Source: Candidatus Uhrbacteria bacterium
GTDB taxonomy: Bacteria > Patescibacteriota > Patescibacteriia > UBA9934 > GWF2-40-263
DNA: 64,000 bases
Direction of reading: 5' to 3'
Assembly: GCA_016188475.1 (NCBI GenBank)
Contig: JACPHT010000006.1
Location: 68,313 to 132,312 of the forward strand
Shown: piece by piece, positions 1-57,040 of the stretch
Numbering within the stretch: position 1 is the stretch's first letter
How the letters are laid out: the number at the start of each line of letters is the position of its first letter
Program-made: the position numbers and the translations under genes
The notes under the pieces: generated by a model
The model's input: the letters and a program-made list of their open reading frames with translations, nothing else
Databases searched by the model: none
Told to the model about the DNA's origin: nothing

Positions 1-1213
1 TGTTGATCTGGAAGCAGGTCCAGACATGGTGAGAATTATGACAGTTCACGGCGCAAAAGGATTGGAGTTTCGATATGTTTTTGTTGTAAATCTTGTTGAT
101 CGTAAGTTTCCAACTCAACGCCGCGGTGAAGCGATTCCTCTTCCCGATGAAATTTTGAATAACGAAAAAACACTTGACGAATCGCTGAATCATCTTGAAG
201 AAGAGCGTCGGTTATTTTATGTTGCAATGACCCGAGCAAAAGAAGGTTTGTTTTTTACATCAGCGGAAGATTATGGTGGAGCTCGAAGTAGGAAGTTGTC
301 GAGGTTTTTAGATGAAGTAGGAATTGAAAAAGGTCTGAAAGGACAGAAAGGTCGGGAAGGTCAAGAGATCATCGAATTTTTTGATGATGATCAAGAGGTA
401 ATAGACAAAACAGAATTGCAATCATACACTCCAAAACGATTTTCGTTCACACAACTTGCGGCTTTTCAAACTTGTCCATTGCAATATAAGTTCGCGCATA
501 TTCTTCGGGTTCCAGTTCTTGGAAAATGGACATTTTCGTTTGGTAAAACAATGCACAATACATTGCATCGATATTTTTTAGCTTGGATGGAACGATCTGG
601 TCAGCGACAAACAACACTTTTTGCAAAAGAAAATCGAGACGCATCAAAAGACGGTTTACCAGTCGGGATTGATGAACTTTTTGAAATGTACAATTCTTGT
701 TGGCAAGATGATTGGTATCCAAACGATCAAACGAGAGAAAAGTATCGTAAAAATGGAAAGGATCAACTTGTTTCTTACGTTTCATTTTTAAAAGAAAATC
801 CTCCAGAGCCGATTGCCCTTGAACAAGGTTATACATATAAAATCGGTGACATTGTTTTGAAAGGTCGTATGGATCGAATCGATCGTTTTGAGGACGGCGT
901 TGAAATTATTGATTACAAAACTGGAAGTCCTAAAATAGAAAAAAAACTTGATCGCTTTGACAAAGAACAATTATGGTTGTATCAGCTTGCCGCGCGCGAT
1001 GTTCTTGGCTTAAACGTGAAAAAACTTTCGTTCGTATATTTGGAAAACAATTCCGTTGTTTCTTTTCTTGGAACAGATGATGATCTTTTGAAATTGCAAG
1101 AAGATATAGTCGATCGAGTAGCGCGAATCCGTGAAAGTCATTTTCCTCCAACTCCGGGATTTCATTGCCAGTATTGTGATTTTGCTGACATCTGTGAGTT
1201 TCGACAGATTTAG
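1..1213 (+). CDS. UvrD/PcrA-family helicase C-terminal region fused to a PD-(D/E)XK Cas4/AddB-like nuclease domain (5'-partial; start lies upstream of the window)
   Basis: ORF 26..1213 opens with helicase motif VI-like VHGAKGLEF...YVAMTRAKEGL. The downstream part carries nuclease motifs (GRMDRID...IIDYKTG...YQLAA) with a Cys near its N-terminus (QTCPLQY) and C-terminal CQYCDFADIC (4-Cys cluster typical of Cas4/AddB). The frame is open to position 1. Confidence 0.7.
   Translation, partial: VDLEAGPDMVRIMTVHGAKGLEFRYVFVVNLVDRKFPTQRRGEAIPLPDEILNNEKTLDESLNHLEEERRLFYVAMTRAKEGLFFTSAEDYGGARSRKLSRFLDEVGIEKGLKGQKGREGQEIIEFFDDDQEVIDKTELQSYTPKRFSFTQLAAFQTCPLQYKFAHILRVPVLGKWTFSFGKTMHNTLHRYFLAWMERSGQRQTTLFAKENRDASKDGLPVGIDELFEMYNSCWQDDWYPNDQTREKYRKNGKDQLVSYVSFLKENPPEPIALEQGYTYKIGDIVLKGRMDRIDRFEDGVEIIDYKTGSPKIEKKLDRFDKEQLWLYQLAARDVLGLNVKKLSFVYLENNSVVSFLGTDDDLLKLQEDIVDRVARIRESHFPPTPGFHCQYCDFADICEFRQI
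327..366. repeat. 9-bp-periodic GAAAGGTC-type tandem array (copy 1 of 4), inside the helicase-nuclease CDS
   Basis: aaaaggtctg|aaaggacag|aaaggtcgg|gaaggtcaa; translated in frame as the collagen-like GXY stretch EKGLKGQKGREGQE. Confidence 0.45.
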
Positions 1214-8911: not shown

Positions 8912-9008
8912 AAATATTACTGTCTGAGCCTGTCGAAGGCTGTTGATTACTTAAATCAATTACTAACGACATTATGACCGTATTTCCTAAAAAATACCAA
9001 TTCTGTTT

Positions 9009-9050
9009 GACCTTTCAGTCCTTTCCGACCTTTCTGACTTTTCAGACCTT
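9009..9050. repeat. 9-bp-periodic GACCTTTC tandem array (copy 2 of 4), directly upstream of the pilM -35 region
   Basis: gacctttca|gtcctttcc|gacctttct|gacttttca|gaccttt, followed by TTGACA (9055-9060) and AGGAGG (9108-9113) before the ATG at 9121. Confidence 0.5.
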
Positions 9051-9120
9051 TGCATTGACACTGTCCACGAAGTATGTTCAAATAAATTCGCTGAAGGCAA
9101 AAGCCTTAGGAGGTACAGTA

Positions 9121-10317
9121 ATGTCGCGAAAATTGCTCCTTGGACTGGATATCGGTTCTTCTTCAATCAAGCTGTGTCAACTCGCAGAGACTGGAACTGG
9201 GCTCAAGCTAGTCAAGTTCGATCAGTGTATGTTGCCACCAAAGGCTATCGTAGATGGTGCTTTGATAGACTACAGGGCAGTCGTGGAAAAGCTTCGTGAA
9301 ACAGCAAGACTGAACAAGTGTGAAGGTGCTCAATGTGCGATCTCGATGTCAGGGCACAATGTTATCGTCAAGCAGATCTCGATTCCAGAGATGACTCAAA
9401 AGGAACTGGAAGAGTCAATGCAGTGGGAAGCGGAGCAGTACATTCCGTTTGACATAAAGGATGTCAACGTTGATGTTCAAATCCTAAATCCCAAAGCAGG
9501 TTATGGACAGATGAAGGTTCTGTTCGTTGTCGCGAAGAAGGACACCATTAATGACTACATTCATGCGGTCCAAGAAGCGGGTCTTCGTCCAGTAGTCGTG
9601 GACATCGACACGCTCGCGGTCCAAAACGCATTCGACTTAAACTACGGCTGTCCTCCAAACGAGGTTGTTGCGCTTATCAATGTTGGTGCGTCATGCATCA
9701 ACATCAATGTGATTTCAAACGGAATTACAACCTTCACGCGTGACATATCGAATGGCGGGTTGCTCATGACAGAAGAGACAATGAAACAGCTCAATGTTTC
9801 GTGGGAAGAGGCTATGCACTACCAAATCGCTGGTGATGACACGGTTTCAGATTCCGGGACAGAACTCTTTCGTGAAGTGAGAAAACTTGAGGAACGCGTT
9901 TCCGAAATTCTTGTAACTGAAATTCAGCGTTCTCTCGATTTCTTCGCTGCAACGACCATCAATGCTGACATCGCACGAATTTACTTGAGCGGCGGTGCTT
10001 CTCAACCTTCAGCTTTCATAAGGGCTCTTGAGCGGCGACTGAAAATTCCTGTTGAGATAATCAATCCGTTCAAGAACATTAGCGTTGACCCGTCCGCTTT
10101 CAACCCCGATCTTCTTCGCACGATGGAACCGATTGCCGCAGTCGCGGTTGGTCTTGCAAGACGTTTCAAGGGCGACACAAGGATCGGTGGAAATGATGTC
10201 AGGATCAATCTCTGCCCATCTGACACGAAGTCTTCAAGATACTCACTCGGCAATCCTTTCAAACTTCCAATCTCTGTCAGGATTCCTTTCACTAAGAGAG
10301 TATTGACTCTCTCGTAA
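9121..10317 (+). CDS. pilM: type IV pilus assembly protein PilM (actin-like ATPase fold), fused at its 3' end to a remnant of the pilN start
   Basis: LLGLDIGSSSIKL, KQISIPEMTQKELEESMQWEAEQYIPFD and VVDIDTLAV are typical PilM blocks. AGGAGG lies 7 nt upstream of the ATG at 9121. The C-terminal tail ...GGNDVRINLCPSD resembles the PilN N-terminus (MxRINLLP). Confidence 0.8.
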   Translation: MSRKLLLGLDIGSSSIKLCQLAETGTGLKLVKFDQCMLPPKAIVDGALIDYRAVVEKLRETARLNKCEGAQCAISMSGHNVIVKQISIPEMTQKELEESMQWEAEQYIPFDIKDVNVDVQILNPKAGYGQMKVLFVVAKKDTINDYIHAVQEAGLRPVVVDIDTLAVQNAFDLNYGCPPNEVVALINVGASCININVISNGITTFTRDISNGGLLMTEETMKQLNVSWEEAMHYQIAGDDTVSDSGTELFREVRKLEERVSEILVTEIQRSLDFFAATTINADIARIYLSGGASQPSAFIRALERRLKIPVEIINPFKNISVDPSAFNPDLLRTMEPIAAVAVGLARRFKGDTRIGGNDVRINLCPSDTKSSRYSLGNPFKLPISVRIPFTKRVLTLS

Positions 10318-10340
10318 CAGCCTATTCTGGCTGTTTTTTG
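10318..10340 (+). terminator. rho-independent terminator after pilM
   Basis: cagcc-tattct-ggctg hairpin followed by TTTTTTG. Confidence 0.5.
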
Positions 10341-10382
10341 TTTCCTGACTTACGGCAGGCAAGTGTGGTAAACTATAAATCT

Positions 10383-34239: not shown

Positions 34240-34267
34240 AAAAAAACTCGGTGTGTTAATCACCGAG
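34240..34267 (-). terminator. rho-independent terminator of cassette gene A1 (hairpin ctcggtg/caccgag + T7 on the minus strand)
   Basis: The A1 stop codon lies in the hairpin loop; a 7-nt A-run on plus becomes a T-run on minus. Confidence 0.5.
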
Positions 34268-35080
34268 AAAAGTCAGAGAAGTGAGCCTTTCACGCCTGTC
34301 TTTAACAATCTCGCTTAGAGAACCTGACCCTATTTTGGTCTGGCCAATAGCGTCAAGTTTGTAACCAGAGAGACGCAACTGTTTAGACTGATTACCTTCA
34401 GCAAATTCCGCTCGCCAAAGGCTCTGAAGCACTGGTACGAAGTTATCTTGAACGATCTTTTCGACTTCTTCGTGATGAGTTTCAAGCCATTCGTCCTTTG
34501 CTGGAACATCTGGAATTGGAAGTAATGGTTGACCGATCTTCCACCACAGAAACTTCCAGTGGCCGAACAGATTTCCGGCACGTATTACTTCGTTCTCAAG
34601 AATGATGCGGTCTCGTTCGCGAACCAGATGAGCGATTGTGGACGCTTTCCACTCAACACTTGGAGTTCCATCTCGTAAAAACGCGAAACATATCTGAAGA
34701 GTGGTTTGCGTTGGAGGTCTTAAAGACGAAAGTTGAACGTGAGCGACTCGAAGCGCGTCCACAAGATCGTAGCGAACTCCTTCAACTTCGCGTTTCAGTT
34801 CACCTTTTTCTCGGCCGAGAAGTCGTTTGAGAAGTTGCTCGTCGTTTGGAGAAAAGACAACTCTCCATTTGTCTTGGTGTTCGAACATTCCGTCGTAACG
34901 AAGTAAAAGTTCTGTTCGAAATCCAACAACAGCTGGAATCAATCCGATGTGAACCAAATTCACTAAATCGATTCCATCAGGCAGATCATCAGTGAAGATA
35001 TTGAGTTCCCTGCTAACTAAGGGACCTTTTAGAGCGTCCACGAGTGATACGTGAACAGGAACAAACCTTCTTTCTTCCAT
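34256..35080 (-). CDS. hypothetical protein A1 of divergent two-gene cassette (no recognisable domain)
   Basis: Start preferred at ATG 35078-35080 (MEERRFVPVHV...), preceded by AAGGAGA. G/C-ending codon bias differs from neighbouring glycosyltransferase genes. Weak R-x6-H (RAGNLFGH) motif only. Confidence 0.5.
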   Translation of the reverse strand: MEERRFVPVHVSLVDALKGPLVSRELNIFTDDLPDGIDLVNLVHIGLIPAVVGFRTELLLRYDGMFEHQDKWRVVFSPNDEQLLKRLLGREKGELKREVEGVRYDLVDALRVAHVQLSSLRPPTQTTLQICFAFLRDGTPSVEWKASTIAHLVRERDRIILENEVIRAGNLFGHWKFLWWKIGQPLLPIPDVPAKDEWLETHHEEVEKIVQDNFVPVLQSLWRAEFAEGNQSKQLRLSGYKLDAIGQTKIGSGSLSEIVKDRRERLTSLTFLGD

Positions 35081-35212
35081 GGTTCTCCTTATTAAGCCTA
35101 AAGGTACGACCATAGAAGTTAAACATTGTTCGTATTGATTGTCAAAGCTGATCGTGCTAGTTTAATTCATGGTGAAAACGAACGTTCCTTTCAATTTATC
35201 GGAGGTGTGCTA

Positions 35213-36505
35213 ATGGAACTTACATCGATCCAAGATGCTGAAACGAAAATTTCGGAGCTTGTTGAGCATTCAAGTCGGCTTCAAGCTGAGTTGCGTGAAA
35301 TTCAAACAAGATCAAGATACGCTGACAGCGAGAAGGATGTCGGGTATTTTAATGAAGAGCGCATTCGTATTCGCAATAACATTGATACTACCCAGAGAGA
35401 GATACTTATCCTAGAACAATATATTCGTGAAGCCCGAGTTAGGACTCTGTCATCTCCTCCAAGAACTATAAAGTCAGCACGAGATGAAGTGGATACTCTT
35501 TTGGTCCAACTTCCTGAACTCCGATCGAGGATTGATTCAACTTCTGAAAGGGGTCTGTCATACACAAAGATGATTGCTCAGAGAAGATTTATCTCTGCTA
35601 GGCTCCATTTTCTTGGTGATTGGATCAAAGAACAAAGACAGCTCCCGAATAACACCGTCGTCAAAGTCGACGATACCATACCGAGTTGTTCAGGAGATGC
35701 GGCTAGAGAGATAAACACACTATCAGAAAAAATCGCCGATCTGATACGTGTATTTGAAGACTTCGATGTTTCTGGACTTTCAGAAGAACGCCTCTCACTT
35801 CTGCTTCAAATAAAGCAGAAAGAAGCGCGGATCGGATTTTTGAGAGAACTTTTGCCTCGGCTTTCCAGAAACCGTCTTCCTACGAACTTTGTTCCTCCAG
35901 ACAGTGTCGCTGAAGCCAGATCTGAATGTGAAAGACTGGCAAAAGAAGTGAACTCGATACAACACAGTCTGAAACGCCTGCCAAGACACGACAATTCTGG
36001 ACGACGTGCAGAACTGGCCAACATGAAATGTGGGGTCGATCAGCGCTTAAACCAACTGCATCGCTGGATCAGTGAACAGGATGAGATAACACGAGCTGGA
36101 ATAACGCGAGAGTATGGAGACATACTTAAGAAAAGCGCGACAGACGAACCAGAGTCAATACAAAACGCAACAACAGAGTTCAAGAGAATTGTCACCTTCC
36201 TTGGCGCACACAAGGAGTCAGAAGTTTCATGTGTGGAAACTTTCAATAAGCTCCGTCAGCGCAAGAACTTTCTTGCTCGATGGATTTCGGAACTACGACA
36301 CAAAGATGGAAATGAATTCGCTGGTATTGATCTTGAAACTCAAGAAGGAATCCTGTCCGCTGTTGACAGACTTTTATCTCTAATCTCACAGGATGATAAA
36401 ACGATAATATTCGATCATCCTGAAAGAGTGGCGGTCTGGAATGCTTTACGAAGCAGGATCGGTTTCAAACCCATGCATTGCAACGTCAGCAAGCTTACTA
36501 CTTAA
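35213..36505 (+). CDS. hypothetical protein A2 of divergent two-gene cassette (430 aa, all-helical, Arg/Glu-rich, internal repeats)
   Basis: GGAGG lies 7 nt upstream of ATG 35213. Four repeated helical blocks: RRFISARLHFLGDWIKEQ / RIGFLRELLPRL / QLHRWISEQDE / NFLARWISELR. No TM helix, no catalytic motif recognised. Confidence 0.5.
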   Translation: MELTSIQDAETKISELVEHSSRLQAELREIQTRSRYADSEKDVGYFNEERIRIRNNIDTTQREILILEQYIREARVRTLSSPPRTIKSARDEVDTLLVQLPELRSRIDSTSERGLSYTKMIAQRRFISARLHFLGDWIKEQRQLPNNTVVKVDDTIPSCSGDAAREINTLSEKIADLIRVFEDFDVSGLSEERLSLLLQIKQKEARIGFLRELLPRLSRNRLPTNFVPPDSVAEARSECERLAKEVNSIQHSLKRLPRHDNSGRRAELANMKCGVDQRLNQLHRWISEQDEITRAGITREYGDILKKSATDEPESIQNATTEFKRIVTFLGAHKESEVSCVETFNKLRQRKNFLARWISELRHKDGNEFAGIDLETQEGILSAVDRLLSLISQDDKTIIFDHPERVAVWNALRSRIGFKPMHCNVSKLTT

Positions 36506-46743: not shown

Positions 46744-48222
46744 ATGGCACGTGAATCATTGATCAGGTTTGCTGAAAACGATTCTCCAGTTCATTCCAAT
46801 TCATATCGCTTACGGCGCTTTCTAAACTGGTTCCCTCTCGGATTCGGTTATGCAAGTCTCGTGTTCATGCGCTATGGTTTAAACGCTGGCCAGCACGCGC
46901 TTGGAGACGACAACCTAATGTCAGAAGCGGATTTCTACAACATCTTCGCCTGGGGCGCGGCGTCCTACGTGATCGGATTTCTAACCCTAAGCCCACTTGT
47001 TGATCGAAAAGGCGGACGCTGGGGCATGATAACAGGACTCATGGGAACGATCTCTGTCAATCTAATAATGGCGCTCGTAGTGAGGAAGACGATTGACGAA
47101 ACTGCACACCTGCCGTTCGTATTCTGCATGACAGCGCTTTATTGCGCGAACATGTTCTTCCAGTCGCTTGGAGCGATGTCGATCGTTGCCGTAAATGTTC
47201 CGTGGTTTCATGTGCGAGAGCGCGGAAAATTCGCGACGATCTTCGGAGTGCTAATAGCGCTTGGCAACTACTTCGCGTTCGATTGGGGGTACGCGATCGT
47301 TGATGCGACGCGCAAATACATCAATCTTGACAAGCTTTCATTTACAGCTTCCATTTTCCAAGGGCTTCTTGGAACTGGTGGAAAAGCCGTAAACGAAAGT
47401 TGGTGGTTGTTCTTGTTCCCTGCGCTGTTCGGACTCTTCTGGCTTATTCCCATAGTGATCACACTTCGAAATTCACCAAAAGAGGCAAGCTTCAACGATT
47501 TCGAAACAGGTATCGAGCACATGAGTGCTTCTCAACTTACGATGTTTCAAATGTTGAAGGAAGTCTTCCTCAATCCAAAACACAGAGTCGTCCTGGTTAT
47601 CTGTCTTATCGAATTCTGCTCTGGCGCAATTCGAAATGGAAGTATTCAGACATATCCTAAGTTCGCAGAACATATAGGATTCAAACACGACTTTGCGCTT
47701 TCTGAACATTGGGGACTCTTTCTTCTGATCGCCGGGGTAATCGGAGCTAACGCGACTGGATTCATATCTGACAAGTGCTTCAACTCGCGTCGCGGTCCTA
47801 TGGCGGTAATTCTGTATGTGCTCATGGTATTCGGAATCTCGATGATACTTTTTTCGCTTGGTTCAAACGCGCCGCATAGCGGATCTATCAATACTGGAAT
47901 CGGACTGTTCATCCTTGCAACTTGTGTAATAGGCGTTCACGGAATTCTATCAGGAACAGCCGCGGCTGAATTCTCTGGCACGAAAAACACGGCAAAAGCA
48001 GTCGGAATCATAGACGGTGCTGTATATCTTGGAACATCCGCACAATCGTTTTTGATGGGCCTGTTCGTTCCAATCTTCCAGCCGGGAGCATTAGCTCACA
48101 AGATCACGGATCCATCCTCATGGATGGCTTGGCCAATCATCCTATTACCGTTTGCAGTGATAGGAACCATACTCGGAACGAGCATTTACAGCGCTTATCC
48201 GAAAGGAAAACATACTCACTGA
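46744..48222 (+). CDS. MFS transporter, organophosphate:Pi antiporter (OPA)-like (sugar-phosphate/glycerol-3-phosphate transporter type); compositionally atypical gene
   Basis: 12 predicted TM helices and a DRKGGRW motif in loop 2-3 as in the GlpT/UhpT family. Noticeably more G/C-ending codons than flanking genes. Confidence 0.55.
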   Translation: MARESLIRFAENDSPVHSNSYRLRRFLNWFPLGFGYASLVFMRYGLNAGQHALGDDNLMSEADFYNIFAWGAASYVIGFLTLSPLVDRKGGRWGMITGLMGTISVNLIMALVVRKTIDETAHLPFVFCMTALYCANMFFQSLGAMSIVAVNVPWFHVRERGKFATIFGVLIALGNYFAFDWGYAIVDATRKYINLDKLSFTASIFQGLLGTGGKAVNESWWLFLFPALFGLFWLIPIVITLRNSPKEASFNDFETGIEHMSASQLTMFQMLKEVFLNPKHRVVLVICLIEFCSGAIRNGSIQTYPKFAEHIGFKHDFALSEHWGLFLLIAGVIGANATGFISDKCFNSRRGPMAVILYVLMVFGISMILFSLGSNAPHSGSINTGIGLFILATCVIGVHGILSGTAAAEFSGTKNTAKAVGIIDGAVYLGTSAQSFLMGLFVPIFQPGALAHKITDPSSWMAWPIILLPFAVIGTILGTSIYSAYPKGKHTH

Positions 48223-52086: not shown

Positions 52087-53456
52087 GAAAACGTTCTTTT
52101 CAAATTTTCAAATTTCTCTGAATCTTCACGCAGAACAAAAAAATCAGTGAAATTTAGCTTCTCATTATATTTTTGTAGCAAATCTGAATACTTAAAAATA
52201 GGAATATACTCCACGCCATTTACCAATCGTTTTGCAACATAGATCATCGTTGCACGCTCTGAATCGCCTTCCCCAAAATGAGAAAGTTCGTTCAAAACAG
52301 AATAAGTAAAATACCTGATCTTGTTTTGATAACAAAATTCTGACAAACCCGAGAGCAAAATTTGATCTTCTTCTTTGGATTTTTGTAAACGCAAAATTCG
52401 TTTCGCTGGAATTCGTTTTACAATATGCTCTGACCAATAATTTTTCGGATTTTTTGATGACTCAAAAATTTGCTCAATCACAGGACCGTCGCGCAACTGC
52501 GTATATAAGTATGGATCCGTGGGAATTTTCAATGAGATCTCTCTGGTTCGAATTGCTTCTTCCAAATAATGTGAAAATCCCGCCTTTGTTTTATGATAAT
52601 AAACTTGATCTATCATGTGATAACGAGCAAGAAGCATGTCTTCATACGCTCGCACTCCGTTTTCAGAAAGAGTCATGATCAGTTGATCATCGTGCTGTGC
52701 AACCCCAAACGATGAGATCAACCAATCAACATCATAATTCCCATACGCGACTCCACAAAAATAACTGTCACGCAAAAGATAATCCATTCGATCAGAATCT
52801 GCCTCGCCAGAAATAAGTCCTTTGAGAACTCGTCCGAGCCCAGGAATACGTACTGAAATTTTTTCCAAGTATTCAGACGGAAAAATATCTTTGTGCATGA
52901 TCGATGCGACATCTTGTGCGAACGATTTTTCCAAAACACCTTCTTGAACAAGAGTTTGAATCAATAGAATGCTGTAATCTTCGTGAGCGGATTTTCGATT
53001 AGGTTTTTGTTTCCACCAAGACCAGTCAAATGGAAAATCCTCGAGCGATGGAAAAATATATTCTGACGCGTGAGAAAACGGACCGTGCCCAATGTCGTGT
53101 AAAAGTCCTGCAACACGAACACGAGAACGAAGGGCTTGAATGTCAACATCAAAAATTGGAACGTTTCGTGAATCTGAAAACAAATGATCAAATAGTCGTC
53201 CGGCAACATGCATTGTCCCAATCGAGTGTAAAAATCTGTCGTGAGTTCCACCAGGATAAACATAAGAATGCAAAAAACCAAGCTGGCTTATGAAACGCAA
53301 ACGCTGAAAAAACGGATGATCAATGATCGTCCGTTCAAATTCGCTAAATGAAATGCGATGATGAATTGGATCGCGAAGTTCGTATGAGGACATAAAAAAG
53401 TAGCTGATACTTCTTTCTTCTTGATACTTGCTACCAATTATCATTCGAAATGTCAA
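52083..53456 (-). CDS. HD-domain phosphohydrolase, dGTPase-like (dNTP triphosphohydrolase family)
   Basis: HDRFLHSIGTMHVAG...LLHDIGHGPFSH...DSDRMDYLLRDSYFCGV HD motifs. 4-bp overlaps with the genes on both sides, so co-operonic. Confidence 0.75.
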   Translation of the reverse strand: MTFRMIIGSKYQEERSISYFFMSSYELRDPIHHRISFSEFERTIIDHPFFQRLRFISQLGFLHSYVYPGGTHDRFLHSIGTMHVAGRLFDHLFSDSRNVPIFDVDIQALRSRVRVAGLLHDIGHGPFSHASEYIFPSLEDFPFDWSWWKQKPNRKSAHEDYSILLIQTLVQEGVLEKSFAQDVASIMHKDIFPSEYLEKISVRIPGLGRVLKGLISGEADSDRMDYLLRDSYFCGVAYGNYDVDWLISSFGVAQHDDQLIMTLSENGVRAYEDMLLARYHMIDQVYYHKTKAGFSHYLEEAIRTREISLKIPTDPYLYTQLRDGPVIEQIFESSKNPKNYWSEHIVKRIPAKRILRLQKSKEEDQILLSGLSEFCYQNKIRYFTYSVLNELSHFGEGDSERATMIYVAKRLVNGVEYIPIFKYSDLLQKYNEKLNFTDFFVLREDSEKFENLKRTFS

Positions 53457-55423
53457 TCAAACTTGATGGTTTGCCCTGGTTTTAATGTGCCTGTATTTTT
53501 TTGCACGGTAGGTGTTGAAGAAAGTAAAGGGGTATTAGGAATCTGAACATTCGGTTTCTTATTTCGATTACGTTTTCGTTTTTTAGGTGAACTAACAGAA
53601 AAATTTACTGGCGACCCAATTGAGTTCGCCTTTGGAAGTGAAACGACTGGCGGTTTTTTAATTTCACTTGAAAGCCAATCATCTTTAAGCTGAGAAGCGG
53701 GCGTTGAAGCACTGCCTTCGACCACCGGACTTGGCGAGGTCACATCTGAAAGCTGGGCAAGCTCAGGCAATACATGTGTTTTCTCTTCAGCCCTTTCAGT
53801 CCTTTCAGTCTTCTCTGGCTTCACATTCAACCTGTTCAAACTAATTGGCTCAGAAGTTGTCTGACGCTCAACTATCGTTCCTTCAGACGGTCTTGGCGGT
53901 AATTCAGATTTTGAACGAACCTCTGTTCGTTTTGGTTTACCATGCTTACGTTCTTCTCTAACAATTTCAATACACTCCTCGCAATAAATCGGTCGAGAAC
54001 GATCAAGTTCAACCGCTAAAACAATTTGTTTATTACATCGTGTGCAATTATATTCAAAACGAGGTTTGCGCGATGATTTTACAAGTTTCTTTTTTTCTTC
54101 TGCTTCCTTAAGCAATGTGTCCATGTCAGCATCTTCCATCCCGCTCCATTTCAAAATCTTTTCTTCAATTTCTTTTCGTGGATTTGCGAAACGTTCACGC
54201 GAAACTTTAATGACCCTATCAGCAGAACCGGTTTTTTTTGAAATTGGTGGCAACGTAATCGCTGAAAACGGCTGGCTTGAAACTCCATCAATAAGCAACT
54301 TCAAATAAACGTTGTATTTGGGAAGATTAATAATATCTTCGGGCATAAAACGCGGAGCGAATTCCTTTTCCATATACAATCCGTCTGGCGAACCGACACG
54401 ATATGAAATTATTGTTCCAACGTTTCCGAAGACCGCTTCGCGAACTTCATCAGTGAGTTGCGCGATATATTGATGAGCCATTGTTAAACACAAACGATAT
54501 TTGCGAGCTTCGGAAAGAATTCCTGCAAACGACTCGACAGCAAAATTTTGAAACTCATCAACGTACAAATAAAAATCTTTTCGATCTTTTTCAGGAACGT
54601 CTACTCGTTCCATTGCGGCAAGCTGAAGTTTCGTGATGAGGAGCCCGCCAAGCAAACGAGAGTTGTCTTCACCAATGCGACCCTTTGAAAGATTTATGAT
54701 GAAAATCTTTTCAGAATCCATTATTTCGCGAATGTGAATCGTCGATTTTACTTGCGCGACAATGTTTCGAATAACTGACGCTGATAAAAATTGCCCGATC
54801 TTGTTTTGAATTGGTGCAACTGCCTCTTGCGCGTACTTATCGTTATACGATGCGAATTCTTTGAGCCAAAATTGCTTGACAACAGGATCTGTGACATTTC
54901 CGACAATTCGATTTCTAAATTCTTCCTCTGAAAGCATGCGATTTATTCCAAGTAATGTCTGTCCGGGATTATCAAGAAGAGCCAAGATCGTGTTATTCAA
55001 AATGTATTCCATACGCGAAGACCACATGTTTTCCCAAATCTTCTTGAAAACACCCATCATTCCGCTCGCAACCAAATGCTTATGGCGTTCGCTCACAGCT
55101 TCCAAAATATTAAAACCAATCGGGAAATCAACATCAGACGGATTGAAATAAATTACATCGTTGATTCGCCAGCTTGGAATGTAATCAATCAATTTTTCAG
55201 CCGTGTCTCCGTGTGGATCAACATAACAACAGCCGTGTCCTGCATAAATATCAGACAAAATAAAATTTTCGAGTAAAGTCGTTTTTCCCATGCCTGTTTT
55301 TCCAATCACATAAACATGGCGACGTCTATCGTCGGTTTTGATTCCAAACTTTGTCATCGAATTTCTGAAATTCGTTTTTGCAAAGTATGTGACTTCATTT
55401 TCGTGGTCGTGATTATGGGACAT
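53453..55423 (-). CDS. FtsK/HerA/TraG-superfamily P-loop ATPase with C-terminal CxxC-N17-CxxC zinc ribbon and Lys/Ser/Pro-rich tail (T4SS coupling-protein-like)
   Basis: Walker A VIGKTGMGKTT, Walker B FYLYVDEFQNF, zinc ribbon CTRCNKQ...CEECIE. No TM helix. The first ATG is at 55423; the ORF-track start at 55438 is a TTG. Confidence 0.55.
   Translation of the reverse strand: MSHNHDHENEVTYFAKTNFRNSMTKFGIKTDDRRRHVYVIGKTGMGKTTLLENFILSDIYAGHGCCYVDPHGDTAEKLIDYIPSWRINDVIYFNPSDVDFPIGFNILEAVSERHKHLVASGMMGVFKKIWENMWSSRMEYILNNTILALLDNPGQTLLGINRMLSEEEFRNRIVGNVTDPVVKQFWLKEFASYNDKYAQEAVAPIQNKIGQFLSASVIRNIVAQVKSTIHIREIMDSEKIFIINLSKGRIGEDNSRLLGGLLITKLQLAAMERVDVPEKDRKDFYLYVDEFQNFAVESFAGILSEARKYRLCLTMAHQYIAQLTDEVREAVFGNVGTIISYRVGSPDGLYMEKEFAPRFMPEDIINLPKYNVYLKLLIDGVSSQPFSAITLPPISKKTGSADRVIKVSRERFANPRKEIEEKILKWSGMEDADMDTLLKEAEEKKKLVKSSRKPRFEYNCTRCNKQIVLAVELDRSRPIYCEECIEIVREERKHGKPKRTEVRSKSELPPRPSEGTIVERQTTSEPISLNRLNVKPEKTERTERAEEKTHVLPELAQLSDVTSPSPVVEGSASTPASQLKDDWLSSEIKKPPVVSLPKANSIGSPVNFSVSSPKKRKRNRNKKPNVQIPNTPLLSSTPTVQKNTGTLKPGQTIKFD
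53784..53816. repeat. 9-bp-periodic GAAAGG(A/G)CT tandem array (copy 3 of 4), inside the ATPase CDS
   Basis: Plus strand ctcttcagccctttcagtcctttcagtcttctc; encodes ...ERTERTERAEE... on the minus strand. Confidence 0.45.
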
Positions 55424-55466
55424 AGGAAGAAAGGTCAAAAAGTACGGAAAGGTCTGAAAGGTCGAA
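55424..55466. repeat. 9-bp-periodic GAAAGGTC tandem array (copy 4 of 4), in the 5' leader of the ATPase gene
   Basis: gaaaggtca|aaaagtacg|gaaaggtct|gaaaggtcg. In mRNA sense it reads GACCTTTC x4 just upstream of the ATG, as at pilM. Confidence 0.5.
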
Positions 55467-55471
55467 AAACG

Positions 55472-57040
55472 TCAAACTGGTAAATTTGGTGGAACAAAAT
55501 CGTCACTTTGCGTTAATGGTTTTTCTTTTACCGGACTTGTTGGTGGTTTAACATCTGGGACTTCGGCGGAACCTATTGTGTCTTCGATCTTCGTTTCACG
55601 CTGGTTAAAGCCAGTGGCTTCAGCGTCTTCCTCCTTTCCTTCAGTTTTATTCATCCCTTCCATTTCTTCCTTCTCTTCCCTCCCCACTGCCAAGGTCTCC
55701 TCTTCAAACGTAATTGGAAGTCCAACAGGAGGTTCAGCTCGTCGAGCTTCGGCTTTCTTAACCAACGGCGCCTTAAATCCAAATGTCGGGAAGTGCCAAA
55801 GCGAAGCTATTTCCTCAACATTCAGAAATGATGGATCGGCTCCGATTCCCCAGCTTCGGTTTTGGTACGCCTTCATAAGCGTATGCTGTTTTTTTGTATA
55901 AACCCAACGCATCCAAAAATAATCATCTTTAGGAACTTGTGGAATAAAGAGCTCAAACTTATTCAACGCAAGATCAGCATATTGATTCAGGATGCCTTTT
56001 ACCATTCCAGTTCGTTCAACTTTCACAAACGCGTTCTTTTTCGCGACATAAAGAATTCGAATTTTTGTTCCCATTCCAACTTTTGAAAGTTTTCGGTATA
56101 AAGCATCTGCCTCTTTTGTTTCTTGTAAAGGCAGTAAAACATACGGCTCTTTTTTTGTTTCTTCTGTTGTGATGCCAAATAAGCCTCCAAGATCAGTTCC
56201 GGTTGCATTTGCGACCACTCCAATTGGCCACGAAACAACTGAATCAATAGCGGAAACTATCGCGCTCTTTTTTGCTTGCTCTGTTTTACCATAAAGTTTA
56301 TTGAGTCGTGCAATTCCTTCCTTAATCCAATCGTTCGTCGATGGCTGAACGATCATTTGAAACCAAAAATGTTCTCCTGGACGCATTTTTGCGAGTTGTT
56401 CAAGCGTGTGTCCAAGTGGATCCTTGATCTCTCCAGTTACCTTATCCTCAAATTCTATGTATGTACGAATTGGATACATTGAAGGTTTTGCAAGTTTGAA
56501 TTCCCCGCCCCACATTTCATATTCATTATCTGGATATACATTTGGAAATTTGGTTGAATAATCCTCGACTTCTGAAATTTCAGCATCAGGATAATGAGCA
56601 TAAATTCCGGCTTCGATCATGTCACGAAAACGAGTTTGCGTTCGAACAAGAAATTGGATATACCCCTCGGCTGAAATTATTTCAAAAGAAAAACTTGGAT
56701 GATATTTTCCAACTATCCACGTTTCCTTCCAAGTTAGAGTCGACTTGGATCCATACAAACTCGAAAACAAATTCTCAAGCGCTTTTGGCGTTTGTTCTGT
56801 CATTGAAGGAACGTCTATCGCTAACAAAACAAATTTTAAAGTCTTTGACCATTCGCCCTGACGATAGTTTTGCCACATCATCACAAAACCCCAACCAAGT
56901 GTGATCGCAATCGGAATCCATCCAAACCAAATAAAAAAATTAAAAAGAATGACGTCAATTGGACGTTCAAAAAACGGAACTGCTACAGCTGAAGTTTGAA
57001 CTGCTTGTTGAACGATTGGTATTGCAAAAAGCGGAAGCAT
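55472..57040 (-). CDS. hypothetical membrane-anchored protein (2 N-terminal TM helices, large soluble domain, acidic C-terminal tail); partner of the ATPase
   Basis: 522 aa. TM helices around residues 1-25 and 35-60, no recognised domain, C-terminal Glu/Lys/Pro-rich low-complexity region. 33-bp gap to the ATPase gene. Confidence 0.45.
   Translation of the reverse strand: MLPLFAIPIVQQAVQTSAVAVPFFERPIDVILFNFFIWFGWIPIAITLGWGFVMMWQNYRQGEWSKTLKFVLLAIDVPSMTEQTPKALENLFSSLYGSKSTLTWKETWIVGKYHPSFSFEIISAEGYIQFLVRTQTRFRDMIEAGIYAHYPDAEISEVEDYSTKFPNVYPDNEYEMWGGEFKLAKPSMYPIRTYIEFEDKVTGEIKDPLGHTLEQLAKMRPGEHFWFQMIVQPSTNDWIKEGIARLNKLYGKTEQAKKSAIVSAIDSVVSWPIGVVANATGTDLGGLFGITTEETKKEPYVLLPLQETKEADALYRKLSKVGMGTKIRILYVAKKNAFVKVERTGMVKGILNQYADLALNKFELFIPQVPKDDYFWMRWVYTKKQHTLMKAYQNRSWGIGADPSFLNVEEIASLWHFPTFGFKAPLVKKAEARRAEPPVGLPITFEEETLAVGREEKEEMEGMNKTEGKEEDAEATGFNQRETKIEDTIGSAEVPDVKPPTSPVKEKPLTQSDDFVPPNLPV

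What the first reader, a model, noticed from the sequence alone, without database searches (positions are those of the whole stretch)
8974..10345. Compositionally foreign orphan pilM fused to a fossil pilN start, with its own SD and terminator
A clear PilM (actin-like T4P inner-membrane platform protein) starts at 9121 after a canonical AGGAGG. Its codon usage is G/C-richer by eye than the flanking Zn-ABC and YibE/F genes. The ORF runs through the expected PilM end (..GLARRF) into ...DVRINLCPSD, which matches the conserved PilN N-terminus (M-x-RINLLP). It stops about 30 codons later at a rho-independent terminator, and no pilNOPQ follows. This looks like a horizontally acquired pilMN fragment, now a PilM with a novel C-terminal tail or a decaying pseudogene, preceded by the 9-bp repeat array.
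Basis: partly seen in the sequence, partly recalled or inferred. Interest (0 to 1): 0.55.

Follow-up and report, generated by a model that had tools for sequence, protein, structure and literature searches.

The report
Lone PilM with tethered PilN peptide
A tiny symbiotic (CPR, Uhrbacteria) bacterium carries a single pilus-machine gene, pilM, taken long ago from Myxococcota-like bacteria; it has kept only the short PilN peptide that PilM normally clamps, fused to its own end, and it is a conserved working gene rather than a decaying fragment.

Summary
ORF 9121-10317 (398 aa) is a bona fide PilM, with its own promoter, AGGAGG and terminator. Its GC3 is 0.50 against about 0.30 for the window. 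A 50-aa tail carries RINL, and no other pilus gene lies in the 64 kb.

The "decaying pseudogene / recent foreign orphan" reading fails. The same gene sits at the same site (ZnuBCA | pilM | YibE/F) in three related genomes that have diverged to dS of about 0.6-1. dN/dS is 0.13-0.20 for the core and 0.09-0.30 for the tail. Tail-bearing solitary copies form one clade in Uhrbacteria, Magasanikbacteria and Falkowbacteria. That clade is sister to 351-353-aa Myxococcota PilMs (60-66% identity), which sit in pilMNOPQ operons where pilN often starts in frame just after the pilM stop.

The tail aligns with PilN residues 2-16 (hhalign 88%). It lacks the transmembrane helix and the periplasmic domain.

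AlphaFold models keep the tail ordered. They best match PilN-bound PilM, including the engineered PilM:PilN1-12 chimera 5EOU.

Most likely it is a self-liganded PilM that works without PilN, derived from an old transfer that is still ameliorating. Its cellular role is unknown. It is a new variant of a known kind, of moderate interest.

The parts
9009..9051 (+). 9-bp tandem repeat GACCTTTCA x4.8. It ends 4 nt before the -35 box. It is specific to this genome and is not a conserved part of the pilM unit.
   Evidence: TRF. The array is absent from orthologous upstream regions in L001, L008 and L009. The same repeat family occurs at 329-363, 53786-53810 and 55429-55472.
9055..9083 (+). Likely promoter: -35 TTGACA (9055-9060), a 17-nt spacer, and an extended -10 TGTTCAAAT (9075-9083).
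   Evidence: Both boxes are conserved in the four syntenic orthologues while the surrounding sequence diverges. The simple scan missed it because the -10 lacks A at position 2. This is an inference from conservation, not shown by expression data.
9108..9113 (+). Shine-Dalgarno AGGAGG, 7 nt before the ATG.
   Evidence: Sequence. It is conserved in L008 and L009 and is AAGGAG in L001.
9121..10164 (+). PilM core, aa 1-348: actin-like ATPase fold with the nucleotide-binding motifs kept.
   Evidence: Pfam PF11104 at 1.3e-63 and TIGR01175 at 229 bits, cut-off 133. phmmer to M. xanthus PilM 3JC8 gives 4.9e-105. The AF2 model has pLDDT 86.6, and Foldseek matches 3jc8, 5eou and 2ych. D10, G12, K17, G291 and G292 are invariant.
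10165..10197 (+). Linker, aa 349-359 (FKGDTRIGGND). It corresponds to the former pilM stop and the pilM-pilN spacer.
   Evidence: Donor-type junctions such as NER*GGRRLAMIKINLLP and ADR*GSSMIRINLLP are in frame.
10198..10242 (+). PilN-derived peptide, aa 360-374 (VRINLCPSDTKSSRY). RINL (10201-10212) is invariant in the CPR clade.
   Evidence: R361, I362, N363 and L364 are invariant in 12 sequences. hhalign against 26 PilN N-termini gives 88%, E 3.1e-6, columns 2-16 to 2-16. The phmmer alignment to the PilM:PilN1-12 chimera 5eou_A runs to residue 365, but to PilM-only 5eox only to residue 348.
10243..10314 (+). Clade-specific C-terminal extension, aa 375-398. It ends in the conserved LP-x-S-[IV]-x-[IVF]-P-F-T-K-R-x-L-T-L-S motif (aa 382-398). 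It is predicted to form a beta-hairpin and has no transmembrane segment.
   Evidence: Conservation. Maximum Kyte-Doolittle 19-residue score is 0.60, against 2.1-3.3 in relatives that keep a TM. AF2 predicts strands at 384-387 and 394-397 with pLDDT 61-73. There is no alignment to the PilN TM.
10315..10345 (+). Stop codon TAA (10315-10317) and an intrinsic terminator: stem-loop 10316-10335 plus a T-run.
   Evidence: Terminator scan. An equivalent hairpin and T-run follow the gene in L001 and L005/L006.

Best explanation
The gene encodes a functional, solitary PilM xenologue. An ancestor in the CPR (Patescibacteria) acquired pilM plus the first ~45 codons of pilN from a Myxococcota-type pilMNOPQ operon. 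Alternatively it acquired an already fused pilMN.

Loss of the pilM stop put the PilN N-terminus in frame. In this clade the PilN transmembrane helix and periplasmic domain are gone. What selection has kept is the short PilN "clamp" peptide (V-R-I-N-L), held on a ~12-residue linker at the C-terminus of PilM.

The most likely mechanism is that this peptide occupies, in cis, the groove on PilM that normally clamps the N-terminus of a separate PilN. The protein would then sit permanently in the PilN-bound, folded, nucleotide-binding state without needing a cognate PilN. It would be a natural counterpart of the engineered PilM:PilN(1-12) chimera.

Because it has no membrane anchor from PilN, it probably acts as a soluble or peripheral adaptor or scaffold, possibly towards the cell's own type IV pilus ATPases or platform protein.

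- **Shown:** identity, foreign ancestry, age, purifying selection on core and tail, homology of the tail to PilN residues 2-16, absence of a TM, and solitary context.
- **Inferred:** cis docking of the peptide.
- **Speculative:** the cellular partner and role.

The raised GC3 is residual donor composition that is still ameliorating.
For: **Family membership**
- Pfam and NCBIfam cut-offs are passed. The fold matches PilM structures.

**Ancestry**
- The 12 tail-bearing CPR proteins are monophyletic. They are sister to unfused Myxococcota PilMs at 60-66% identity.
- Donor-type locus L007 has pilM-pilN-pilO-pilP-pilQ.
- Many donor junctions have pilN in frame after the stop.
- Full-length natural PilM-PilN fusions exist, for example the 581-aa Bradymonadia protein P0123. 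Intermediate forms with a TM but no periplasmic core also exist: P0124, P0126 and P0155.

**Age and selection**
- Synteny holds in L001, L008 and L009.
- PilM dS of 0.57-1.0 is like that of its neighbours. dN/dS is 0.15-0.20 overall. Split by region, the core gives 0.13-0.20 and the tail 0.09-0.30.
- RINL is invariant while the rest of the tail varies. Falkowbacteria P0056 keeps only ...ARINLLGSKK.

**Homology of the tail to PilN**
- hhalign gives 88%, E 3e-6, in register.

**Docking**
- In two independent AF2 models the tail is ordered, with pLDDT about 70. The free N-terminus of P0056 scores 39.
- Both models fit PilN-bound structures better (5eou TMq 0.77-0.82 at rmsd 3.0-3.4; 2ych rmsd 2.4-2.6) than PilN-free PilM (TMq 0.66-0.75, rmsd 4.2-5.3). 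Alignments to the chimera span 366 columns, which includes the tail.
- PilM clamping the PilN N-terminus in a groove is established (PMC5285504, PMC4471445; PDB 2YCH and 5EOU titles).

**Solitary context**
- The four syntenic ZnuBCA|pilM|YibE/F loci and five other genomic contexts have no pilN, pilO, pilP, pilQ, pilB or full-length pilC next to the gene. The divergent relative at L093 is followed by only a 66-aa T2SSF fragment.
- No pil genes were found in the window.
Against: - I could not see model coordinates or PAE, so peptide-in-groove contacts are not demonstrated. A pLDDT of about 70 is only moderate. AF2 may favour the PilN-bound conformation from its training data.
- Trans binding (head-to-tail oligomers) would fit the same data.
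- The conserved C-terminal hairpin motif has no explained role.
- No expression data are available.
- The rest of this genome, outside the 64-kb window, could not be searched for native pilus genes.
- dN/dS of the gene is about twice that of its neighbours.
- GC3 excess persisting at dS of about 1 is somewhat more than a crude amelioration estimate predicts. The parsimony direction test was inconclusive.
Confidence: 0.6

Rival explanations
1. Decaying pilMN fragment. The tail would be meaningless read-through of a fossil pilN start, and the gene would be on its way to loss.
For: - No pilN, pilO, pilP or pilQ partner is present.
- The PilN TM and periplasmic domain are lost.
- A more divergent relative (P0137, L093) is followed by a 66-aa T2SSF fragment, which looks like cluster decay.
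- dN/dS is about twice that of the neighbours.
Against: - The intact ORF is kept at the same site in four genomes at dS 0.6-1.
- Tail dN/dS is 0.09-0.30.
- The tail and RINL are conserved across Uhrbacteria, Magasanikbacteria and Falkowbacteria.
- Promoter, SD and terminator are conserved.
Confidence: 0.03
2. The tethered PilN peptide binds in trans. The tail of one protomer would insert into the groove of the next, producing head-to-tail dimers, rings or filaments instead of a self-capped monomer.
For: - The peptide and groove logic is the same as in the best explanation.
- Actin-like relatives (FtsA, MreB) polymerise, and FtsA binds a partner peptide (7Q6I appears among the fold hits).
- A second conserved C-terminal motif of unknown role follows a low-confidence segment at residues 369-383.
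Against: - The linker to RINL is short, about 12 residues, and is itself modelled as ordered (pLDDT 71) in a monomer prediction.
- The engineered chimera with a direct C-terminal fusion has the same order as this protein, PilM then PilN.
- The two cases cannot be separated without coordinates.
Confidence: 0.15
3. The protein is still membrane-tethered. The conserved C-terminal LPxSIxxRIPFTKRxLTLS segment would be a degenerate membrane anchor or peripheral membrane-binding element that replaces the PilN TM helix. The protein would then work like a minimal GspL-type PilM-PilN at the membrane, within the native CPR pilus machine.
For: - The 439-aa relative P0124, which lies outside the tail clade in the NJ tree but sits at a locus syntenic with Magasanikbacteria P0068, and also P0126 and P0155, keep a real TM after the peptide.
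- The segment sits where the PilN TM would be. It is conserved, with alternating hydrophobic and basic residues.
- CPR generally encode their own type IV pilus machinery (PMC11623550).
Against: - The maximum KD19 score is at most 0.69 in all 12 clade members.
- The Falkowbacteria member lacks the segment altogether.
- There is no hhalign match to the PilN TM.
- AF2 predicts a beta-hairpin, not a helix.
Confidence: 0.2
4. Recent horizontal acquisition, or an assembly or binning chimera, explains the foreign composition.
For: - GC3 is 0.50 against 0.30.
- It is a single-gene insert with its own signals.
Against: - Four independent assemblies show the same insertion site, with flanking CPR genes on both sides.
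- dS of pilM equals that of its neighbours.
- No relative was found in IMG/VR viral contigs.
- No mobile-element gene is adjacent.
Confidence: 0.03

Closest known systems
Canonical type IVa pilus PilM (TIGR01175 / PF11104; M. xanthus PilM in 3JC8, T. thermophilus 2YCH, P. aeruginosa 5EOX)
   Same: - Same family by curated cut-offs.
- 50% structure-based identity to M. xanthus PilM.
- Same actin-like fold and nucleotide-binding motifs.
   Different: - It is not encoded with pilNOPQ or next to pilB/pilC.
- It lives in a CPR genome.
- It carries a 50-aa C-terminal extension that includes its own PilN-type ligand.
Engineered PilM:PilN(1-12) chimera of P. aeruginosa (PDB 5EOU; McCallum et al. 2016, cited from memory and from the PDB title)
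   Same: - Same topology: PilM followed at its C-terminus by the PilN N-terminal peptide.
- The sequence alignment runs through RINL.
- It is the best or near-best structural match for both models.
   Different: - This one is natural and conserved, not engineered.
- It has a ~12-residue linker and a further ~34 residues after the peptide.
- Binding was not shown here.
Natural full-length PilM-PilN fusions and their analogues: GspL (T2SS), BfpC, the Amuc_1101 family (NF045709), and the 550-586-aa proteins found here (e.g. Bradymonadia P0123)
   Same: A PilM-like cytoplasmic domain is covalently joined to PilN-like sequence. The junction in P0123 (GDFRINLLP) is like the one here (PMC4471445 for GspL = PilM+PilN).
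   Different: - Those keep the TM helix and the periplasmic PilN/GspL domain.
- This protein has neither.
- It scores 150 bits against a 650-bit cut-off for NF045709.
FtsA (actin-like, binds the FtsN N-terminal peptide, has a C-terminal membrane-targeting sequence)
   Same: Same fold class. It has a partner peptide bound on the 1A/1C side and a flexible C-terminal tail with a terminal functional motif (fold hits 7Q6I and 4A2A).
   Different: - Only 13-19% identity.
- TIGR01174 scores 32 bits against a 176-bit cut-off.
- No amphipathic helix is predicted at the C-terminus.
PilM/N/O homologues co-opted outside pili (flagellar cage; PMC10823254)
   Same: It is a precedent for pilus alignment proteins being reused for another machine.
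   Different: There the whole PilMNO set is reused in a diderm. Here only PilM plus a PilN peptide is reused, after transfer between phyla.

Membership tests
PilM (TIGR01175 / PF11104) | Profile score above the curated cut-off over the full domain | tested here: met
   PF11104 gives 215.5 bits (cut-off 27) over residues 8-348. TIGR01175 gives 229.1 bits (cut-off 133) over residues 3-348.
PilM (TIGR01175 / PF11104) | Actin-like ATPase fold with nucleotide-binding motifs | tested here: met
   AF2 gives pLDDT 86.6 and pTM 0.84. Foldseek gives 3jc8_Ma at E 1.7e-35 and 2ych at TMt 0.89. D10, G12, K17, G291 and G292 are invariant. Actual ATP binding was not tested.
PilM (TIGR01175 / PF11104) | Encoded with pilN/pilO (and pilP/pilQ in diderms) as part of a pilus machine | tested here: not met
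   The gene is solitary in the window and in the other contexts examined. Only the divergent relative at L093 has a neighbouring pil remnant, a 66-aa T2SSF fragment. The rest of the genome was not searchable.
PilM (TIGR01175 / PF11104) | Clamps the N-terminal peptide of PilN in a groove | not testable with these tools
   Support is indirect only. The tail is ordered in two AF2 models, and the fit is better to PilN-bound structures.
PilN (PF05137) | Conserved cytoplasmic N-terminal motif (I/V)(R/K)(I/V)NLLP | tested here: met
   VRINLCP is at residues 360-366. RINL is invariant in the clade. hhalign to 26 PilN N-termini gives 88%, E 3.1e-6.
PilN (PF05137) | Single transmembrane helix after the N-terminal peptide | tested here: not met
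   Maximum KD19 is 0.60, against 2.1-3.6 in real PilNs and full fusions.
PilN (PF05137) | Periplasmic coiled coil plus ferredoxin-like core | tested here: not met
   The protein ends 34 residues after RINL. There is no Pfam PilN hit.
Full PilM-PilN fusion / Amuc_1101 family (NF045709), GspL-like | Score above the family cut-off, with a TM and a periplasmic domain present | tested here: not met
   149.8 bits against a 650-bit cut-off. The match covers only positions 7-368 of the 608-position profile.
Pseudogene / gene remnant | Disrupted frame or relaxed selection (dN/dS near 1), with no conservation among relatives | tested here: not met
   ORFs are intact in all relatives. dN/dS is 0.13-0.20 for the core and 0.09-0.30 for the tail.

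The most novel reading that the evidence does not exclude
The self-capped, anchorless PilM is a host-derived decoy. CPR episymbionts would have captured pilM-pilN' from the Myxococcota or Bradymonadia-type bacteria they live on. They would use a soluble PilM whose PilN groove is already filled to bind pilus motor proteins (PilB, PilT, PilC) without being recruited to a PilNOPQ scaffold. The target could be the host's pili, to manipulate them, or the symbiont's own divergent pilus motor, to rewire it. In that case the donor lineage of the gene would also point to the unknown hosts of Uhrbacteria and Magasanikbacteria.
Probability: 0.07. Interest if true: 0.8.

Novelty: new variant of a known kind. 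Interest (0 to 1): 0.5.

Why it matters
- **Structure-function.** This is a natural experiment on the PilM-PilN interface. Evolution stripped away everything from PilN except the ~5-residue clamp motif and kept it covalently attached through long divergence. That argues the peptide is needed for PilM itself (fold, nucleotide state or partner choice), not only for membrane anchoring.
- **CPR biology.** It shows a clear, datable transfer from Myxococcota to CPR of a cytoplasmic machine part. The part has been domesticated as a stand-alone gene in several CPR lineages.
- **Host clue.** Because CPR hosts are largely unknown, the donor lineage is a testable hint about ecological partners.
- **Annotation.** These proteins are currently labelled plain "PilM". 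That label hides both the fusion and the absence of a pilus operon around them.

Tried and rejected
1. **Pfam on tails.** A scan of ten isolated tails and one true PilN N-terminus showed that the PilN model does not cover the N-terminal peptide, so it was uninformative.
2. **phmmer of the tail against PDB.** Only the PilM C-terminus matched.
3. **Profile search with the C-terminal 85 aa against 5.8 billion proteins.** It gave 2 hits and did not even recover the queries, so it was useless for sizing the family.
4. **Genome-contig scan.** Falkowbacteria L011 was the only CPR locus, so the taxonomic range is under-sampled.
5. **Parsimony test of GC->AT against AT->GC changes at four-fold sites.** The ratio differs from the neighbours (Fisher p=0.004), but parsimony bias at dS of about 1 makes it inconclusive on amelioration versus selection.
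6. **Extending beyond the window.** The attempt to look for native pil genes returned only short Logan contigs of the same region.
7. **Metagenome scan with YibE/F for an empty insertion site.** Only 4 loci came back, none informative.
8. **Viral contigs.** No relative was found, so there is no sign of phage carriage.
9. **The 447-aa start at 8974.** Rejected, because the extension is not conserved and consists of translated repeats.
10. **The 9-bp array as a regulatory part of the pilM unit.** Rejected as a conserved feature.
11. **Primary papers.** Karuppiah & Derrick 2011 and McCallum 2016 are not held in the library. Statements about them rest on PDB titles, secondary citations (PMC5285504, PMC4471445) and my own knowledge.
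Full report
**What is there**

The window is low-GC (38.8%). It is typical of a CPR/Patescibacteria genome, with MreBCD, PBP2, ZnuABC, GreA, LysS, ribosomal proteins and SecDFA. The identical protein is deposited as PilM of a Candidatus Uhrbacteria bacterium.

ORF 9121-10317(+) encodes 398 aa. Residues 3-348 are a full-length PilM. Pfam PilM_2 gives 1.3e-63. NCBIfam TIGR01175 gives 229 bits against a cut-off of 133. phmmer against Myxococcus xanthus PilM (3JC8) gives 4.9e-105.

The expression signals are as follows.
- AGGAGG at 9108-9113.
- A stem-loop terminator at 10316-10335 that overlaps the stop codon.
- A -35 TTGACA (9055-9060) and an extended -10 TGTTCAAAT (9075-9083). Both are conserved in the orthologous upstream regions of three related genomes.

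The mechanical 447-aa ORF from 8974 merely translates the upstream repeat and is not conserved.

**Composition**

GC3 of the gene is 0.50. The other 47 ORFs have a mean of 0.30 (sd 0.04). Only an MFS transporter at 46744-48222 is comparable.

**The tail**

Canonical PilMs of the nearest non-CPR relatives end at ..GLGLRRxGD(K) and are 351-353 aa long. This protein continues FKGDTRIGGND-VRINL-CPSDTKSSRYSLGNPFK-LPISVRIPFTKRVLTLS.

Eleven other proteins carry the same architecture: P0002-8, P0028, P0068, P0111 and P0056. Those with a source name are Magasanikbacteria, Falkowbacteria or "Patescibacteria group". R-I-N-L is invariant in all of them. Most also share a second conserved C-terminal motif. 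The Falkowbacteria member stops right after ARINLLGSKK.

A profile of the tails aligns in register with a profile of 26 PilN N-termini taken from Myxococcota/Deltaproteobacteria loci. hhalign gives 88%, E 3.1e-6, columns 2-16 to 2-16. The remaining ~25 residues do not align with the PilN transmembrane helix. They are far too polar to be one: the maximum 19-residue Kyte-Doolittle score is at most 0.69 in all clade members, against 2.1-3.6 in real PilNs.

**Where it came from**

After the CPR clade, the best hits are 351-353-aa PilMs of Myxococcota/"Deltaproteobacteria" at 60-66% identity. In a neighbour-joining tree of the PilM core, the 12 tail-bearing proteins are monophyletic and sister to that Myxococcota group.

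A donor-type locus (L007) shows pilM-pilN-pilO-pilP-pilQ. In many such loci pilN begins in the same frame a few codons after the pilM stop. Examples are ADR*GSSMIRINLLP, NER*GGRRLAMIKINLLP and GDR*MLAMVRINLLGRAKG.... A single stop-to-sense change there reproduces the arrangement seen here (GD-TRIGGND-VRINL).

An exhaustive HMM search shows the same fusion in other states.
- Full-length PilM-PilN proteins of 550-586 aa with a TM and a periplasmic domain, for example Bradymonadia P0123.
- Short forms of 416-478 aa. Some still have a TM but no periplasmic core (P0124, P0126, P0155). Others have none (P0161, P0215).

P0124 sits at a locus syntenic with Magasanikbacteria P0068 (pilM | P-type ATPase | translin). 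The common denominator across all these forms is PilM plus the PilN clamp peptide.

**Age and selection**

Three related contigs (L001, L008, L009; PilM 73-76% identical) have the gene at exactly the same place: ZnuBCA | pilM | YibE/F-GreA-LysS-....

| Measure (Nei-Gojobori) | PilM | Eight flanking genes |
|---|---|---|
| dS | 0.57-1.0 | 0.3-1.2 |
| dN/dS | 0.15-0.20 | 0.04-0.18 |

Split by region, dN/dS is 0.13-0.20 for the PilM core and 0.09-0.30 for the tail. The gene was therefore present before these genomes diverged, is inherited vertically, and is under purifying selection including its tail. This excludes a pseudogene, a recent arrival and an assembly chimera.

All four orthologues still show GC4 of 0.40-0.51 against 0.17-0.36 for their neighbours. 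Excess GC3 is also seen in the Magasanikbacteria (L002) and P0124 (L091) loci. It is not seen in L005 or L090, where host GC3 is already about 0.42-0.54.

My rough two-state estimate says that a dS of about 1 should remove roughly 60% of a compositional offset. The data then fit an older transfer from a GC-richer donor that is still ameliorating. This is inference. A parsimony test of substitution direction was inconclusive. No relative was found in IMG/VR viral contigs.

**Context**

The four syntenic ZnuBCA|pilM|YibE/F loci and five other genomic contexts (L002-4, L005/6, L090, L091, L092) have no pilN, pilO, pilP, pilQ, pilB or pilC next to the gene. The more divergent Magasanikbacteria relative at L093 is followed by only a 66-aa T2SSF fragment, with T2SSE genes elsewhere on the contig.

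In the window, tblastn with Myxococcota PilN, PilO, PilP and PilQ, and with CPR T2SSE and T2SSF queries, finds nothing. Pfam on the unassigned ORFs shows no pilus families. A TrwB/VirD4-like protein is present at 53453-55438.

I could not search the remainder of the genome. The literature reports that most CPR phyla have their own pilB, pilT, pilM and pilC, with pilM, pilN and pilO in pilus loci in Saccharibacteria (PMC11623550).

**Structure and mechanism**

AlphaFold2 with a 64-sequence alignment gives pLDDT 86.6 and pTM 0.84. Confidence along the tail is:

| Residues | pLDDT |
|---|---|
| 351-360 | 71 |
| 361-370 | 73 |
| 371-380 | 35 |
| 381-390 | 61 |
| 391-398 | 73 |

A beta-hairpin is predicted at 384-387 and 394-397. 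A second model of the minimal-tail Falkowbacteria protein keeps its C-terminal ...ARINLLGSKK at pLDDT about 70. Its genuinely free N-terminus scores 39.

Foldseek places both models closer to PilN-bound PilM than to PilN-free PilM.

| Target state | PDB | TMq | rmsd (Å) |
|---|---|---|---|
| PilN-bound, PilM:PilN1-12 chimera | 5EOU | 0.77-0.82 | 3.0-3.4 |
| PilN-bound, PilM-PilN complex | 2YCH | not quoted here | 2.4-2.6 |
| PilN-free | 5EOX, 5EOY, 5EQ6 | 0.66-0.75 | 4.2-5.3 |

The alignment to 5EOU spans 366 columns. phmmer aligns the query through residue 365 to the chimera, but only to residue 348 for PilM alone.

PilM is known to clamp the short cytoplasmic N-terminus of PilN in a groove, and PilM+PilN together correspond to GspL (PMC5285504, PMC4471445).

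My best explanation is therefore a self-liganded PilM. The tethered PilN peptide fills the groove in cis, so the protein is independent of a separate PilN and is no longer membrane-anchored through it.

I could not inspect coordinates or PAE, so docking is inferred and not shown. Trans binding (head-to-tail oligomers) and a residual peripheral membrane role for the C-terminal motif remain open. The cellular partner is unknown.

**Comparison with known systems and novelty**

It is a member of the PilM family by profile and by fold. It fails the contextual criterion of being part of a pilMNO(PQ) unit. It is not a PilN, because it lacks the TM and the periplasmic domain. It does not reach the cut-off of the Amuc_1101-type full fusions (150 against 650 bits).

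Full PilM-PilN fusions (GspL, BfpC, the Amuc_1101 family and the 550-586-aa proteins found here) are known in kind. A conserved, solitary PilM that retains only the PilN clamp peptide, in a lineage that obtained it by transfer between phyla, is something I did not find described. The searchable library is incomplete. I rate it a new variant of a known kind, of moderate interest.

**The 9-bp array**

The array is real: 9009-9051, GACCTTTCA x4.8. It is not part of the conserved unit, because it is missing upstream of the three orthologues. It belongs to a repeat family dispersed in this genome, described under items noticed in passing.

Noticed in passing
window 329-363, 9009-9051, 53786-53810, 55429-55472: A dispersed family of 9-bp tandem repeats (GACCTTTCN) occurs in this genome. 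One array lies just upstream of the pilM -35 box. One fills the 5' UTR up to 4 nt before the ATG of the TrwB/VirD4-like gene, with no visible SD. Two lie in frame inside ORFs on the opposite strand, encoding KGLKGQKGREGQ and ..ERTERAE... A 17-mer with up to 3 mismatches gives 9 hits against 0.2 expected (0 of 100 shuffles). The family is absent from the syntenic relatives L001, L008 and L009.
   Followed up: partly
window 46744-48222 (+): A 492-aa MFS transporter is the only other strong compositional outlier in the window (GC 0.476, GC3 0.50 against about 0.30). It is distantly similar to organophosphate:phosphate antiporters (PgtP, UhpC, UhpT, GlpT), far below their cut-offs. It is a second candidate for horizontal acquisition, of a type used by obligate symbionts to import phosphorylated metabolites.
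   Followed up: partly
window 53453-57040 (-): A TrwB/VirD4-like coupling-protein homologue (661 aa; PF10412 at 1.9e-11) is followed upstream by a 522-aa membrane protein, called DUF8128 in the precomputed annotation of L094. The pair sits among housekeeping genes with no other conjugation genes in view.
   Followed up: no
L093 7883-9427 (Magasanikbacteria GCA_026396495.1): A more divergent short PilM-RINL fusion (P0137, 443 aa, annotated partial) runs into sequence resembling the start of PilC (by eye, not tested). It is followed by a 66-aa T2SSF fragment. Two T2SSE (PilB-like) genes lie elsewhere on the contig. This looks like a fragmenting pilM-pilN'-pilC' remnant.
   Followed up: partly
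window 34256-36505: Two divergently oriented ORFs (285 aa on the - strand, 459 aa on the + strand) have moderately raised GC3 (0.37-0.38) and no Pfam or NCBIfam match. The 459-aa protein appears to have repeated coiled-coil-like segments (judged by eye).
   Followed up: no
L009 2868-3305: One of the syntenic relatives has an extra 145-aa ORF with no Pfam hit, inserted between ZnuA and pilM. The ZnuA|pilM intergenic region is therefore a variable spot in this lineage.
   Followed up: no
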